A stretch of DNA of 64,000 nucleotides from Escherichia coli (GCF_003018235.1 NZ_CP027437.1); one strand, 5' to 3'; numbered from the stretch's first letter, positions 45,535 to 55,148 are shown. The notes: generated by a model not told the origin, from the letters alone. Made by a program: numbers and translations.

Positions 45535-45708
45535 TTAAAACAGTGAAAACAACAGCGCCACCGGGAAACTCATCGGCCATGTTGCCCCCACCAGAAAGGC
45601 GCTTAAGAAACGGATGCGTTTCTTATCGTGAGAAAGAAACCAGGTGATAAGAAATGCGATTGCTGCCATAACCGCATAAAAAACAAGCATGTGTTGATAG
45701 AGAGACAT
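45535..45708 (-). CDS. ortT: Orphan membrane toxin OrtT (57 aa)
   Basis: ATG at 45708 (MSLYQHMLVFYAVMAAIAFLITWFLSHDKKRIRFLSAFLVGATWPMSFPVALLFSLF). Confidence 0.85.
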   Translation of the reverse strand: MSLYQHMLVFYAVMAAIAFLITWFLSHDKKRIRFLSAFLVGATWPMSFPVALLFSLF

Positions 45709-45902
45709 GTACGGGCGTCCAGCCAGATGAATAAAACGCGCGCAAATATGCGTCATTTTTTGACGTACATCAAGTTTTTTAACCGGTTTGAGAAAAAAAC
45801 ATCAAACAGCAACTTGCCCTTATCCATCTTCAGAATGAGTATTATTGCGGATTTTCTTAACCCGTACTATACACATAGGGGCAATGATAAAAGGTGGCAA
45901 AA

Positions 45903-45998
45903 ATGAATGTTTCCAGTAGAACTGTAGTACTGATAAATGTCTTTGCTGCTGTTGGTTTGTTTACTCTTATCTCTATGAGATTTGGCTGGTTTATTTGA
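45903..45998 (+). CDS. yncL: Small membrane protein YncL (31 aa)
   Basis: MNVSSRTVVLINVFAAVGLFTLISMRFGWFI; below the 60-aa cutoff of the ORF track, found by direct reading. Confidence 0.7.
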   Translation: MNVSSRTVVLINVFAAVGLFTLISMRFGWFI

Positions 45999-46399
45999 TG
46001 TAGTGATTTTGCACGCAGCACGTACTGTCAGAGAAATCAGTGCTCTGACAGTACGCAAGATCATCTCATACTCTCCAGGTTTACAACATTATCCTTAATA
46101 TTTACTTCTTTTTGCTGACATCTACATTGAAATAAGTAGAAAACATCCCCCTACTGCCGTCTATACAGACAGCTTACTGATTCAAAGGGAACCTTGTTTT
46201 CACATTTTGCTATCATCAATACTTTAGACGCGCGGGAGTCTATAAATGCTTTATACTTTCAGGGAATAAAGTAAATATAAAAAGATGGCGTAAATTATAT
46301 GCATGGCAGGATGATTGCGACCTCCTTGATGACGCTGTCCCATTGAAATTGCAAACCCCGCACTGGTTATCTTGCCCATTTATCATGCAGAACAGACAA

Positions 46400-47209
46400 T
46401 TATAGGTCTCTGAATATCTCAGAAAGATTGAATTTTTTATAGTCCATCTCTTGAATATTTCCATTTGATATCAATCGATTCATCTCTTCAACAAAATAAT
46501 TTATATCATCACATTTGTTATTATCCGGAAGATATGAGTAATTATAATTCCACCACTTTATTCTCAACAATTCATCAATAACATTTGAATCAAATCTAAA
46601 TCTGATTATTTTTGCAGGAACTCCAGCAACTATGGCATATGGGGGCACATCTTTGGTAACAACAGAATTGGCAGCAATAACAGCACCATCACCTATTGCG
46701 ATGCCACCTTTCAATACAACATCATTTCCTATCCAGACATCATTTCCTATAATCGGATTTTCAGGTTTGGTAATGAATGGTTTCAATGTCCAGCTACGTT
46801 CAAACTCACTCTTAGCAAACTTATCAAATTCACCGTTATAAGTCATCATGTGAGTAGTAAAACGATTCAAAGGATGATTTCCACCCATTATTTTTACATT
46901 TGATGCAATACTACAAAATCGACCTATATGTATATTCCCTGTAAAATGACAGGTCGGGAATGAAAAAGCGCCGACACTGGAGAAATTTTTTACAGGCATT
47001 GTTGAATATTCTTCAGCAATAACATTATCTTCAATTGTTATCTTGTCACCTTTTGAGAAAAGAAATAAATTCCTTTCTTTATACGACTTCTTCCCCTTAT
47101 GATTTAAAAAGATTTTATTATCCATACAAAACTCAAAGTGTTTTTTCGTCCACCTGAAGGTAAGGGTTTTATTTTTATCTTCCGTGAATTTATACAATTG
47201 AACTTTCAT
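46400..47209 (-). CDS. XAT-family hexapeptide-repeat acetyltransferase (Vat/CatB-like, 269 aa), very AT-rich
   Basis: C-terminal ...NPIIGNDVWIGNDVVLKGGIAIGDGAVIAANSVVTKDVPPYAIVAGVPAKIIRFRF...LLRIKWWNY resembles type-B chloramphenicol and streptogramin A acetyltransferases; ~60-aa N-terminal extension. Confidence 0.8.
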   Translation of the reverse strand: MKVQLYKFTEDKNKTLTFRWTKKHFEFCMDNKIFLNHKGKKSYKERNLFLFSKGDKITIEDNVIAEEYSTMPVKNFSSVGAFSFPTCHFTGNIHIGRFCSIASNVKIMGGNHPLNRFTTHMMTYNGEFDKFAKSEFERSWTLKPFITKPENPIIGNDVWIGNDVVLKGGIAIGDGAVIAANSVVTKDVPPYAIVAGVPAKIIRFRFDSNVIDELLRIKWWNYNYSYLPDNNKCDDINYFVEEMNRLISNGNIQEMDYKKFNLSEIFRDL

Positions 47210-47431
47210 TGTTATTACTTCTACTTATAAATTATTAGGTTAATAACGATACTCTAAAGCCTTATGCGAATCAACTATGACAGGATGAAAAATCACCAAC
47301 ATACATTTAGATCATAATAACTGCCTAATTTTTCCGCTAGTTATTAATGTAATCATTCTGATACTTAATCACCATTACACTCAGAACCTAAAACGATAGT
47401 GGCCGCCCTATAACAGCCACTAACATTTAAC

Positions 47432-52780: not shown

Positions 52781-53024
52781 AAGGTCTTACTCCTGTCGTA
52801 ATTAATTGTTCAGCCGCCGTGCCGTAAAAATATCTCCTTGTTTAACCATAGACGGCGGCTTGCAGGCACACCTTCGCCCCTGAGAAAATTTAATCAGGTT
52901 GTGAGCTACCGCGCATTATGCCGTCTGTAAGGTTATCTTCTGGAGTATAGACAAGGAGTTAGGAAATATGACTGCTATTCGAAATTCATATTACTTAACC
53001 TGAGAGGAATTAAATTAAACGCTA

Positions 53025-54431
53025 TTACAGTCGTTCTTGAATAAGTTTGCCTAATTGTTTAACCGCCTGTTCTTCGCGCTCGCCCCACTGCCACGCGGTA
53101 TTAAAACGGAAAAAACGTGACCAGTTTTCACCGGTAGAAAACATTTTACCCGGCGCAATACTGATATGATGCGCCAGTGCCGCCAGGCTTAATTCGCCCG
53201 CATCTAACGGTTCGGGAAGCTCCAGCCAGAGAAAATAACCGCTGTCATTATGATGAATTTTCACTTCCGCAGGCAGATAACGCAGCAGTGCTTGCCAGGC
53301 ACGTTGTTTACGTTCCGCAAGCTGGCGACGCAGGCGACGAAGATGGGCGTCGTATCGGCGCGTGGAAAGGTAATCCACCAGAGCAAGCTGCATCGGTGAG
53401 CTGGTGGAAAGCGTACTCATCAACTGCAAGCGTTGAATTTTACGTGCATGTTTTCCGGCGGCGACCCAACCAATACGAAAACCAGGCACCAGACATTTCG
53501 AAAACGAAGAGCAATGCAAAACACCATCGTGGTGATCCCACGCTTTCGCAGGCAGCGGTTTTTCCCGTCCAAAATAAAGTTCGCTGTAAACGTCATCTTC
53601 AATCAGCGTTACGTTGTACTGATTGAGCAACGCTACCAGCCGCGCTTTTTTCTGCGGCGTTAAGGTAAATCCGAGTGGATTCTGGCTATTAGTCATCAGC
53701 CAGCACGCTTTCACCGGATACTCCTGCAACGCCAGTTCCAGCGCCTTGAGATCAATCCCTTCTTTAACGTCCGTCGCCACCGATAACGCCTTCAGCCGTA
53801 ACCGCTCCAGCGCCTGCAACGCGCCGTAGAAACAAGGATTCTCTACTATCACCCAATCGCCCGGTTCAGTGACCGCTTGTAAACTGAGGTTTAATGCCTC
53901 TAACGCCCCGGCGGTAATGACAATTTCATCAGGAGAAATAGTGATGCCCTGTAAGGCATAGCGACGAGCAATAGCCTGACGCAGTTCTGCGTTTCCTGGC
54001 GGTAAGTTTTCAATCACGCTCATCGCCGTGGCGGTTTTGCTTACCTGCGCCAGCGAGCGGTTTAGTTGTTGGAGGGGGAAAAGTCGCGGGTCGGGAAAGG
54101 CCGAGGCAAACGGAACTACCGACGGATCGCGACTGGCCTGCAACATATCAAAAATATAGGTGTTGATATCGACTGCTTCATCTCGAGTGACAGGAATGAC
54201 TGGCGCTTTCGGCATTTTTATTGCCTGTGGCGCAACGTAATAACCCGATTGCGGTCGAGCGATAATATGTCCCTGACTTTCGAGCAACTGATAGGCATGG
54301 CTGACAGTCATAAAGCTCATGCCAGAAAGCGCCACCTGGTCACGCAACGAAGGCAAACGATCGCCAGGTTGCCAGATACCCGACGCAATCTGCTCGCGTA
54401 ATTGTTCTGCAAGCTGCTGGTATTTTTTCAT
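53025..54431 (-). CDS. ydcR: MocR/GntR-family regulator with aminotransferase-like domain (468 aa)
   Basis: N-terminal wHTH plus class-I aminotransferase fold. Confidence 0.88.
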   Translation of the reverse strand: MKKYQQLAEQLREQIASGIWQPGDRLPSLRDQVALSGMSFMTVSHAYQLLESQGHIIARPQSGYYVAPQAIKMPKAPVIPVTRDEAVDINTYIFDMLQASRDPSVVPFASAFPDPRLFPLQQLNRSLAQVSKTATAMSVIENLPPGNAELRQAIARRYALQGITISPDEIVITAGALEALNLSLQAVTEPGDWVIVENPCFYGALQALERLRLKALSVATDVKEGIDLKALELALQEYPVKACWLMTNSQNPLGFTLTPQKKARLVALLNQYNVTLIEDDVYSELYFGREKPLPAKAWDHHDGVLHCSSFSKCLVPGFRIGWVAAGKHARKIQRLQLMSTLSTSSPMQLALVDYLSTRRYDAHLRRLRRQLAERKQRAWQALLRYLPAEVKIHHNDSGYFLWLELPEPLDAGELSLAALAHHISIAPGKMFSTGENWSRFFRFNTAWQWGEREEQAVKQLGKLIQERL

Positions 54432-54509
54432 TATCGAATCGTAATTATGTGCAGATGATTCGGTAGTCTATATCAGTTGTTAAAAATGACAACTTTTCGT
54501 TAACTGTAA

Positions 54510-54926
54510 TTAAACCATCACCAGCGATAACTCTTTGCCAAGCGCCTTTGCCGCGAGCTGGACGGCGTCGATTTTTGTCGCATGGTGCAAATTAAATAGG
54601 CGAGTAATCTCCTGTTTAGGTTTGCCAATTCGTCTGGCTAACTCTTGCTGAGTGATTTCTGACTGTAAAAAAGCATTTAACAGCAATACTTTAGAGGCGA
54701 TACTTAAAGGCACTTCAATAAAGTGATCGTTGTTAGTTAATGGCGAAGGCAACGGGATTAGCTCATTATCTTCAAAATAAAAATCAAATGCGGTCAGTAA
54801 AGCATCTTTTGCCGCTTCCATCGCTTCAGCAACTGTTTCGCCCTGGGTCAACGCTTCAGGGATATCCACAAAAGAAACCATATAACCGCCTTCCGGCGCG
54901 GGTGTAAGAGTGACGGGATAACGCAT
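54510..54926 (-). CDS. hicB: HicB antitoxin (138 aa from ATG at 54926; an in-frame ATG 7 codons upstream also exists)
   Basis: MRYPVTLTPAPEGGYMVSFVDIPEALTQGETVAEAMEAAKDALL...; C-terminal HTH. Confidence 0.88.
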   Translation of the reverse strand: MRYPVTLTPAPEGGYMVSFVDIPEALTQGETVAEAMEAAKDALLTAFDFYFEDNELIPLPSPLTNNDHFIEVPLSIASKVLLLNAFLQSEITQQELARRIGKPKQEITRLFNLHHATKIDAVQLAAKALGKELSLVMV

Positions 54927-54971
54927 AATTTCGACTGTCTCTCGCATGTCATTAACCTTTTTAATTGGCGA

Positions 54972-55148
54972 TTAACTCAAACCGAGTTGCTTCAGGATTG
55001 CTTTACGCAATGGTTCTTTTATCTCATCACTGGGGTGACGCGGCATGACACTGCGTCGCCCTTGAAACCTGAGTTTCAAATGGTTGCTGCCATTCGCCAC
55101 ATCGACGCCCTGAGATTCGAGCCAACGTCTGAACTCGCTTTGTTTCAC
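54972..55148 (-). CDS. hicA: HicA mRNA-interferase toxin (58 aa, GTG start)
   Basis: Found by direct reading: VKQSEFRRWLESQGVDVANGSNHLKLRFQGRRSVMPRHPSDEIKEPLRKAILKQLGLS; below ORF-track cutoff. Confidence 0.85.
   Translation of the reverse strand: MKQSEFRRWLESQGVDVANGSNHLKLRFQGRRSVMPRHPSDEIKEPLRKAILKQLGLS

What the first reader, a model, noticed from the sequence alone, without database searches (positions are those of the whole stretch)
45535..55148. Cluster of small toxin or toxin-like genes in the backbone (ortT, yncL, hicAB) plus a partnerless HigA-like yddM
hicA (58 aa, GTG start) and yncL (31 aa) fall below the ORF-track size cutoff and were found only by direct reading. ortT is an orphan membrane toxin. 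yddM (1722-2006) is a HigA-like HTH protein with no HigB-like partner in the 145 bp upstream. Together these show that short ORFs in this window are systematically missed by length-filtered ORF calls.
Basis: partly seen in the sequence, partly recalled or inferred. Interest (0 to 1): 0.3.

Follow-up and report, generated by a model that had tools for sequence, protein, structure and literature searches.

The report
Known small E. coli toxin genes
These are the already described E. coli genes ortT, yncL, hicAB and yddM sitting in ordinary chromosomal backbone, and the one useful addition is that yddM lacks a toxin partner because an old deletion removed its higB toxin gene, which about a quarter of E. 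coli strains still carry.

Summary
- ortT (45535-45708, minus strand)
- yncL (45903-45998, plus strand)
- hicB and hicA (54510-54926 and 54972-55148, minus strand; hicA starts with GTG)
- yddM (1722-2006, plus strand)

They do not form a functional cluster. ortT and yncL are neighbours. hicAB lies 8.5 kb away, beyond the patD-ydcVUTS-ydcR genes and a 1.3 kb acetyltransferase islet. yddM is about 43 kb from ortT. All sit in backbone shared by more than 99% of complete E. coli genomes.

The proposed check for a higB remnant in 1577-1721 found no coding remnant. Comparison with other genomes explains why. An intact 92-aa HigB toxin gene sits directly upstream of yddM in E. albertii, Citrobacter and 1331 of 5426 complete E. 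coli genomes. The window carries the K-12-type allele. That allele has lost the whole higB reading frame but keeps an upstream palindrome that I read as the operator. YddM here is 100% identical to the solved CFT073 HigA structure (PDB 2ICP) and shows almost no amino-acid change.

Verdict: already known, low interest.

The parts
45535..45708 (-). ortT (ydcX), a 57-aa GhoT/OrtT-family small membrane toxin with no antitoxin
   Evidence: PF10753 at 96.9 bits. There are no nucleotide differences from K-12 b1445. It is annotated as orphan toxin OrtT. Toxicity and orphan status come from PMC4344625.
45709..45902 (.). 194-bp divergent spacer between ortT and yncL, holding the promoters of both genes
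   Evidence: The length matches the 194-bp upstream spacer described in PMC4344625. It aligns with the K-12 spacer without gaps and with only a few substitutions.
45903..45998 (+). yncL, a 31-aa single-pass stress-response membrane protein
   Evidence: NF000537 equivalog at 72.5 bits against a cutoff of 35. One substitution, F13V, relative to K-12. Membrane depolarisation on production is reported in PMC12542507.
54972..55148 (-). hicA, a 58-aa type II toxin (ribosome-independent mRNA interferase) with a GTG start
   Evidence: PF07927 at 34.5 bits against 27. K-12 also uses GTG. The substitutions are H29Q and C40S, and His23 is retained. The role of His23 comes from PMC11594946.
54510..54926 (-). 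hicB, a 138-aa antitoxin and repressor with an N-terminal HicB fold and a C-terminal Xre helix-turn-helix
   Evidence: PF15919 over residues 3-65 and PF01381 over residues 88-134. Four substitutions relative to K-12 at residues 64-66 and 76, which lie between the two domain matches.
55149..55369 (-). hicAB upstream region. In K-12 this region holds P1 (CRP-S site, activated by Sxy) and P2 (repressed by HicB).
   Evidence: It aligns with the K-12 upstream region without gaps and with only a few substitutions. The promoter architecture comes from PMC11594946. I did not map the promoters here.
1722..2006 (+). yddM, a 94-aa HigA-family antitoxin and Xre-type DNA-binding protein that has no toxin partner in this window
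   Evidence: TIGR02607 at 93.7 bits. It is 100% identical over 94 of 94 residues to PDB 2ICP/2ICT, deposited as antitoxin HigA. The protein is identical to K-12 b1477.
1577..1721 (+). adhP-yddM spacer, the scar left by the higB deletion. It contains no higB coding remnant.
   Evidence: Alignment A1 shows the whole 279-bp higB reading frame missing relative to E. coli E69, E. albertii and Citrobacter, plus about 46 bp further upstream. tblastn with HigB finds nothing here.
1585..1614 (+). Hairpin just downstream of the adhP stop codon (TGCTGCGAC, 12 nt, GTCGCAGCA)
   Evidence: Inverted repeat I1. The same hairpin is present in higB-positive strains. Its terminator role is inferred only, and the terminator scan did not call it.
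1665..1703 (+). Overlapping palindromes AGGAACAATA / TAGTGTTCCT / AGGAACGCTA, the retained candidate HigA operator of the former higBA promoter
   Evidence: Inverted repeats I3 and I4. The GGAACAATA, TGATAG, GTTCCT and GGAAC cores are invariant across window, E. coli, E. albertii and Citrobacter. Binding by YddM was not tested here.

Best explanation
The finding is a list of four independent, already described loci in E. coli core-genome backbone. It is not one system.

1. ortT encodes a small GhoT-like membrane toxin that damages the membrane and lowers ATP. It has no antitoxin.
2. yncL, divergent from ortT, encodes a 31-aa stress-induced membrane protein that partly depolarises the membrane when it is produced.
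3. hicAB is a complete type II toxin-antitoxin operon with the toxin gene first. HicA cuts mRNA without the ribosome. HicB binds HicA and represses the downstream promoter.
4. yddM is the HigA antitoxin of a former higBA operon.

For yddM, the ancestral gene order was adhP, higB, higA(yddM), with the higB stop codon overlapping the yddM start codon (TAATG). In the lineage that gave the K-12-type allele carried by this window, a deletion removed the whole higB reading frame. The conserved palindrome upstream of the former higB start (the candidate operator) and an intact yddM were left behind. I infer, but have not shown, that YddM is still made from that retained upstream region, represses it by binding the conserved palindromes, and is kept by selection as a DNA-binding regulator, as a neutraliser of related HigB toxins, or both.
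For: Gene identity:
- Family matches above curated cut-offs for all five genes.
- Near-identity to the K-12 genes and matching RefSeq names.

Backbone status:
- The 11-kb main region is at least 80% covered in 5377 of 5426 complete genomes.
- The yddM region is at least 80% covered in 5399 of 5426.

higB loss:
- An intact 92-aa ORF ends at the yddM start codon in E. albertii, E. coli E69, E. coli SCPM-O-B-8794, Escherichia sp. MOD1-EC7003 and most of the enterobacterial loci fetched: most Citrobacter, plus Cedecea, Buttiauxella and Erwinia rhapontici.
- That ORF matches PF05015 HigB-like_toxin at 64.4 bits. It hits the Rts1/Proteus HigB structure 4MCT_B at E = 8e-32, with the C-terminal YEDYH and the LHPL-GDR motif conserved.
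- Alignment A1 shows the reading frame absent from the window while the upstream palindrome is retained.
- higB is present in 1331 of 5426 E. coli genomes.
- The toxin-less 145-bp allele is at least 80% covered in 2836 genomes. Toxin-less alleles made up 45 of 60 evenly sampled records.
- The right-hand junction is the same in window, K-12, S51, STW0522-31, 15.TR.026_OXA and an O157 strain. This points to a single event.

Constraint on yddM:
- Window against CFT073 gives 11 synonymous and 0 non-synonymous differences. Window against K-12 gives 4 and 0. Window against Citrobacter gives dN/dS of 0.04-0.08.
- The same protein accession, WP_000781370.1, is annotated in both higB-positive and higB-negative strains.

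Literature:
- OrtT is an orphan toxin (PMC4344625).
- YncL depolarises the membrane (PMC12542507).
- hicAB has two promoters (PMC11594946).
- YddM was chosen as a candidate transcription factor for ChIP-exo, and motif analysis was run on its binding regions (PMC6237786).
- An RpoD promoter was detected at the adhP-yddM spacer (PMC3946193).
Against: - The consensus sigma-70 scan found no promoter in 1500-2100, so expression from the retained higBA upstream region rests on the literature and on conservation.
- The sequence between the adhP hairpin and the palindrome (about 1615-1650) does not align with the higB-positive E. coli allele. The toxin-less allele is therefore not a simple one-step deletion of the present-day higB-positive sequence, and the exact breakpoints cannot be fixed.
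- Divergence among toxin-less strains is small, a few substitutions. The evidence for purifying selection after toxin loss specifically is therefore weak.
- One variant, 15.TR.026_OXA, has lost 29 bp including the palindrome yet keeps yddM. The operator is therefore dispensable in at least some strains.
Confidence: 0.9

Rival explanations
1. The genes form a functional toxin islet: a co-regulated or co-inherited cluster of small toxins maintained together in the backbone.
For: ortT and yncL are adjacent and divergent, and both products act on the membrane (PMC4344625; PMC12542507). hicAB lies within 10 kb of them.
Against: yncL and hicB are separated by 8.5 kb that holds the acetyltransferase islet, patD-ydcVUTS and ydcR. 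The gene families and mechanisms are unrelated. The genes are on different strands and have their own promoters. An islet inserts between yncL and patD in 21% of genomes without affecting either side. The ortT/yncL and hicAB segments show only moderately low GC (0.38-0.48), and I saw no mobile-element features around them. yddM is about 43 kb away.
Confidence: 0.03
2. yddM has always been a solo regulator at this locus, and the higB-positive allele arose by later insertion of a toxin gene.
For: The toxin-less allele is the majority allele in E. coli, at about 75%.
Against: Outgroups carry higB directly upstream of yddM with the same overlapping stop and start codons. In E. albertii, an Escherichia cryptic-clade genome and two Citrobacter genomes adhP lies upstream as well. 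More distant relatives in delta- and alpha-proteobacteria also pair this kind of HigA with a PF05015 toxin. The conserved palindrome lies upstream of higB, not between higB and yddM, which fits an ancestral two-gene operon.
Confidence: 0.03
3. yddM in this window is a decaying relic with no remaining function and has simply not yet been lost.
For: Its toxin is gone. One strain class has also lost the palindrome. Strains with the S51-type allele carry a mutated left half-site, GCAACA instead of GGAACA.
Against: The gene region is retained in more than 99% of complete genomes. The protein is identical across deep E. coli lineages and E. albertii, with only synonymous change. Published genetic-interaction data link yddM to stress-response regulators, and it was studied as a candidate transcription factor (PMC6237786, PMC9283627).
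Confidence: 0.1

Closest known systems
E. coli K-12 OrtT (YdcX, b1445), the orphan toxin of the GhoT/OrtT family
   Same: Identical nucleotide and protein sequence. Same neighbours, ydcY downstream and yncL divergent upstream, with a 194-bp spacer.
   Different: Nothing detected.
E. coli K-12 YncL (b4598), a small stress-response membrane protein
   Same: 31 aa, same position and orientation, and an NCBIfam equivalog match.
   Different: One substitution, F13V. Downstream, a 1.33-kb islet separates it from patD, whereas K-12 has 96 bp there.
E. coli K-12 HicAB (b4532/b1438), a type II toxin-antitoxin system
   Same: Toxin-first gene order, 45-bp spacer, GTG start, His23 retained, HicB with HicB fold plus helix-turn-helix, and a near-identical upstream region.
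   Different: HicA carries H29Q and C40S. HicB carries N64T, S65N, H66N and V76I. None of these falls in a residue I know to be catalytic.
HigA of E. coli CFT073 (PDB 2ICP/2ICT) and the HigBA system of plasmid Rts1 (PDB 4MCT/4MCX)
   Same: YddM is 100% identical to the CFT073 HigA crystal construct. Its former partner is a close homologue of Rts1 HigB, E = 8e-32.
   Different: CFT073 has higB immediately upstream. This window, like K-12, has lost it. It is therefore a solo antitoxin and not a toxin-antitoxin system.
Orphan antitoxins derived from degraded type II toxin-antitoxin loci, as catalogued for example in Klebsiella and discussed as anti-addiction modules (PMC7354431)
   Same: An antitoxin gene kept after loss of the toxin, and related plasmid-borne toxins exist.
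   Different: Here the toxin was removed cleanly rather than decaying in place. Any anti-addiction role is untested. Apart from three near-identical (at least 90%) hits, at least one of which is a mislabelled chromosome, all plasmid HigB relatives are below 60% identical.

Membership tests
GhoT/OrtT small membrane toxins (Pfam PF10753) | Profile match above the gathering score over the full length of a protein of about 57 aa | tested here: met
   96.9 bits against 22.1, residues 4-57 aligned to profile positions 1-55 of 55.
GhoT/OrtT small membrane toxins (Pfam PF10753) | For the orphan OrtT subtype, no adjacent GhoS-type antitoxin | tested here: met
   The neighbours are ydcY (DUF2526) and yncL. 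No other family hit was found. Experimental exclusion of YdcY, GhoS and the flanking RNA is in PMC4344625.
GhoT/OrtT small membrane toxins (Pfam PF10753) | Membrane damage and growth arrest on expression | not testable with these tools
   Literature only (PMC4344625). The sequence is identical to the tested K-12 protein.
YncL (NCBIfam NF000537, equivalog) | Profile match above the curated cut-off | tested here: met
   72.5 bits against 35, residues 1-30 of a 30-position profile.
HicAB type II toxin-antitoxin system | HicA toxin domain (PF07927) with the conserved catalytic histidine | tested here: met
   34.5 bits against 27. His23 is present in GSNHLKL. Its role comes from PMC11594946.
HicAB type II toxin-antitoxin system | An adjacent HicB antitoxin downstream of the toxin, with a DNA-binding domain | tested here: met
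   PF15919 at 32.2 bits against 27 and HTH_3 at 31.6 against 23. hicB starts 45 bp after the hicA stop codon on the same strand.
HicAB type II toxin-antitoxin system | RNase activity of HicA, neutralisation by HicB, and autoregulation | not testable with these tools
   Literature on the K-12 system (PMC11594946). The window proteins differ from K-12 by 2 and 4 residues.
HigA antitoxin (NCBIfam TIGR02607) | Profile match above the curated cut-off, with the Xre helix-turn-helix | tested here: met
   93.7 bits against 47.7. HTH_3 at 39.1 bits. 100% identity to PDB 2ICP.
HigBA toxin-antitoxin system (complete module) | A HigB-like toxin gene (PF05015) adjacent to higA, normally immediately upstream | tested here: not met
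   The 145-bp spacer has no HigB similarity. tblastn over the whole 64-kb window gives a best E-value of 0.14, which is chance level. Downstream there are only about 50 bp before fdnI on the opposite strand.
HigBA toxin-antitoxin system (complete module) | A palindromic operator upstream of the operon, bound by HigA | tested here: inconclusive
   Conserved overlapping palindromes lie at 1665-1703. Binding was not tested, and the consensus promoter scan was negative.

The most novel reading that the evidence does not exclude
The toxin-less yddM allele, found in roughly three quarters of complete E. coli genomes, may be actively maintained as a stand-alone immunity or anti-addiction factor. On this reading YddM neutralises the HigB toxin still carried by B2, D and F-type strains, or related plasmid-borne HigB toxins. 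It would also work as a domesticated stress regulator acting through its retained operator. The evidence does not exclude this. The protein is invariant across lineages with and without the toxin. The operator is conserved. HigB relatives sit on 451 plasmids, with Escherichia the most frequent host genus among all 454 matching records (89 records).
Probability: 0.25. Interest if true: 0.4.

Novelty: already known. Interest (0 to 1): 0.12.

Why it matters
It matters little as a discovery. All five genes are annotated and four have dedicated literature.

The practical value is twofold.
- It confirms that a 60-aa ORF filter hides real genes such as hicA and yncL, so a small-gene-aware annotation step is needed.
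- It turns the puzzle of a partnerless HigA into a resolved case. yddM is the surviving half of a higBA operon whose toxin was cleanly deleted in one lineage and kept in another.

This gives a natural within-species pair of alleles. With it one could test whether orphan antitoxins are kept as regulators or as protection against related toxins.

Tried and rejected
- **Protein-level search for a higB remnant.** I ran tblastn with HigB, word size 2, against window 1500-1800 and against the whole window. Only chance-level hits appeared, so the remnant idea is rejected.
- **Consensus promoter and terminator scan of 1500-2100.** Nothing was called. The scan therefore gave no support for a promoter, and I rely on conservation and on PMC3946193.
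- **O157:H7 strain TR01 as a possible common second deletion allele.** It keeps the last 48 bp or so of higB. The follow-up search showed it is essentially private to that record. Other O157 strains carry the K-12-type allele. It is noted but carries no weight.
- **Rfam scan of the whole window for small RNAs that might act as antitoxins near ortT or yncL.** The only hit was the fdnG SECIS element.
- **Literature search for a description of yddM as a deleted higBA.** I found only the CFT073 HigA structure reference and studies that treat YddM as a candidate transcription factor. No paper in the searchable library states the deletion explicitly, but RefSeq annotation shows both alleles.
- **Cluster significance.** I considered a formal test of whether the loci are closer together than chance but did not run one, because the loci are unrelated and are separated by metabolic genes.

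
Full report
**What the window is.** The 11 kb around the finding matches 5416 of 5426 complete E. coli genomes, with at least 80% coverage in 5377 of them. The best matches reach 98.8% identity. The gene order is mnaT-ydcZ-ydcY-ortT-yncL-(acetyltransferase)-patD-ydcVUTS-ydcR-hicB-hicA-yncJ-rlhA, as annotated in RefSeq. It is collinear with K-12 b1435-b1449, apart from a 1.33-kb insertion. The left end of the window holds adhP-yddM-fdnIH. This is ordinary E. coli chromosomal backbone.

**Checking the observation.**
- ortT (45535-45708, minus strand) matches Pfam PF10753 at 96.9 bits. 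It is identical in nucleotide sequence to K-12 ortT.
- yncL (45903-45998, plus strand) matches the NCBIfam YncL equivalog at 72.5 bits against a cut-off of 35. It differs from K-12 by F13V.
- hicA (54972-55148, minus strand) is 58 aa and starts with GTG, as in K-12. It matches PF07927 and keeps His23.
- hicB (54510-54926, minus strand) has the HicB fold plus an Xre helix-turn-helix.
- yddM (1722-2006, plus strand) matches TIGR02607 HigA at 93.7 bits against 47.7. It lies 145 bp after the adhP stop codon.
- hicA (58 aa) and yncL (31 aa annotated, 34 aa as an ORF) fall below a 60-aa ORF filter. ortT does not, because its longest ORF is 73 aa.

**Is it a cluster?** I see no evidence that it is.
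- ortT and yncL are divergent neighbours across a 194-bp spacer.
- hicAB is 8.5 kb further on, beyond a low-GC islet, the patD-ydcVUTS operon and ydcR.
- yddM is about 43 kb from ortT.
- The families and mechanisms are unrelated.
- I found no mobile-element features around the ortT/yncL or hicAB segments, and their GC content is only moderately low, 0.38-0.48.
- I did not compute a formal enrichment statistic.

**What each locus does, from the literature.**
- OrtT is toxic through membrane damage and ATP loss. It is not neutralised by YdcY, GhoS, the flanking RNA or a genomic library, hence the name orphan toxin (PMC4344625).
- YncL is induced by heat shock, minimal medium and stationary phase. 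When produced it causes sublethal membrane depolarisation and nucleoid condensation (PMC12542507). The label toxin-like is therefore defensible, although it is not classed as a toxin.
- HicA is a bacteriostatic, ribosome-independent RNase. hicAB has an upstream promoter dependent on Sxy and a CRP-S site, and a downstream promoter repressed by HicB (PMC11594946). The window's upstream region aligns with K-12's without gaps and with only a few substitutions.
The short ORFs are expressed proteins.

**The partnerless yddM.** This is the only part where tools added something.
- A scan of one genome per species found 41 loci encoding YddM relatives. In most of the enterobacterial loci, an ORF of about 92 aa ends exactly at the yddM start codon (TAATG overlap). 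These loci include E. albertii, E. coli E69, E. coli SCPM-O-B-8794, Escherichia sp. MOD1-EC7003, most Citrobacter, Cedecea, Buttiauxella, Erwinia rhapontici and some Chimaeribacter. In the Escherichia genomes and two Citrobacter genomes, adhP lies upstream as in the window.
- That ORF is a HigB-like toxin. It matches PF05015 at 64.4 bits. It hits the Rts1/Proteus HigB structure 4MCT_B at E = 8e-32, with the LHPL-GDR motif and the C-terminal YEDYH conserved.
- YddM itself is 100% identical over all 94 residues to PDB 2ICP/2ICT, deposited as antitoxin HigA. A review names that structure as YddM from E. coli CFT073 (PMC3968373). CFT073 carries higB directly upstream.

**Anatomy of the deletion.**
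- Alignment of the window spacer with higB-positive alleles shows that the hairpin just after adhP is shared.
- The following 40 bp or so do not align well, and the window is about 46 bp shorter there.
- Next comes a conserved block with the motifs TTGTTGCG, GGAACAATA(A/G)TGATAG(T/C)GTTCCT and GGAAC.
- After that block the entire higB reading frame is absent. The window resumes at CACTAATGAAAATGG, which is the higB-stop/yddM-start junction.
- The motif TAATGAA occurs both at higB codons 2-3 and at the yddM start, so a deletion between short direct repeats is plausible. Later divergence prevents fixing the breakpoints.
- The conserved block forms overlapping palindromes at window 1665-1703. I interpret them as the HigA operator of the former operon.
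- A tblastn search with HigB finds no remnant in 1500-1800 or anywhere else in the window.
There is no degraded coding remnant, but the upstream regulatory DNA of the lost toxin gene survives.

**Population picture.**
- higB is present in 1331 of 5426 complete E. coli genomes. Examples are CFT073, S88, ST131, ST69 and strain 746.
- The window's 145-bp allele is at least 80% covered in 2836 genomes. A more diverged version of the same allele brings toxin-less records to 45 of 60 evenly sampled rows.
- Window, K-12, S51, STW0522-31, 15.TR.026_OXA and an O157 strain share the same right-hand junction. This points to one ancestral event.
- The Escherichia and Citrobacter outgroups have higB in the same place, so the toxin-less state is derived.
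- Two minor variants exist. One has a further 29-bp deletion between GAAGGAAC repeats that removes the palindrome (15.TR.026_OXA). The other is a private allele in O157:H7 TR01 that keeps the last 48 bp or so of higB.

**Constraint on yddM.**
- The YddM protein is identical in window, K-12, CFT073, ST69, E69 and E. albertii.
- Differences are synonymous only: 11 to 0 against CFT073, 11 to 0 against E. albertii and 4 to 0 against K-12. dN/dS against Citrobacter is 0.04-0.08.
- The yddM region is retained in more than 99% of genomes.
- This argues that yddM is not simply decaying. Divergence within toxin-less strains is too small, however, to prove selection after toxin loss.
- Published work selected YddM as a candidate transcription factor for ChIP-exo and ran motif analysis on its binding regions (PMC6237786). 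Its genetic-interaction profile links it to stress-response regulators (PMC9283627). Genomic SELEX detected an RpoD promoter at the adhP-yddM spacer (PMC3946193). The simple consensus scan here found none.

**Mechanism, with what is shown and what is inferred.**
- Shown here: the gene identities, the absence of higB, the retained conserved palindromes, the allele frequencies and the synonymous-only change.
- From the literature: the activities of OrtT, YncL and HicAB, and the HigA fold of YddM.
- Inferred: YddM is still expressed from the former higBA upstream region and represses it through the palindromes. It is kept as a regulator, as a neutraliser of related HigB toxins, or both. Apart from three near-identical hits (at least 90% identity), at least one of which is a mislabelled chromosome, plasmid-borne HigB relatives are under 60% identical. 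They occur on 451 plasmids, and Escherichia is the most frequent host genus among all 454 matching records, with 89. Cross-neutralisation is therefore possible but unproven.

**Verdict.** Everything here is already annotated and largely characterised, so the novelty class is already known and the interest is low. The resolved origin of the orphan antitoxin is a tidy explanatory result and not a discovery.

Noticed in passing
window 46105-47430 (ORF 46400-47209, minus strand): A 1.33-kb low-GC islet (GC 0.29-0.39) lies between yncL and patD. It encodes a 269-aa hexapeptide-repeat acetyltransferase related to the CatB/Vat xenobiotic acetyltransferases but scoring below every curated cut-off. It is absent from K-12 and from O157:H7, and at least 80% covered in 1149 of 5426 complete E. 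coli genomes. It is flanked by an imperfect 11-bp direct repeat, CTTAATATTTA / CTTAATGTTTA, at the patD stop codon.
   Followed up: partly
L043 (E. coli O157:H7 TR01) 602-746, compared with window 1577-1721: A second, apparently private higB deletion allele. It has the upstream sequence typical of higB-positive strains, then the K-12-type version of the operator's left half, then the last 48 bp or so of higB. Its length is also 145 bp. It could be a recombinant or an assembly oddity.
   Followed up: partly
L049 (E. coli 15.TR.026_OXA) 601-716, compared with window 1663-1691: A sub-variant of the toxin-less allele has lost 29 bp between GAAGGAAC direct repeats. This removes the candidate HigA operator palindrome while yddM stays intact. 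Two of the 60 sampled records had this shorter span.
   Followed up: partly
window 1644-1721: An in-frame ATG at 1644 would extend yddM to 120 aa. The extension is the former higB leader and operator region read in frame. The family profile, the crystal construct and the higB-positive strains all support the ATG at 1722.
   Followed up: yes
window 6007-6065 (minus strand): A selenocysteine insertion sequence (Rfam SECIS_3, 84.3 bits), which I assign to fdnG from the K-12 gene order. It was the only Rfam match in the window.
   Followed up: no
L052 (E. coli strain 746) 28152-35811, roughly corresponding to window 26000-36000 (correspondence not checked): In strain 746, the best match for window 45000-56000, this interval holds a VgrG / Rhs-core toxin / small ORF set plus ISAs1 and Rhs fragments. 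Strain 746 is higB-positive while the window is not, so the window's strain is a mosaic relative to it. I did not check whether the window carries the same Rhs set.
   Followed up: no
window 2007-2056: A 50-bp spacer between the convergent genes yddM and fdnI contains a GC-rich hairpin, AATGGCGCTT-CTTA-AAGCGCCATT, that looks like a shared bidirectional terminator. The terminator scan did not call it.
   Followed up: no
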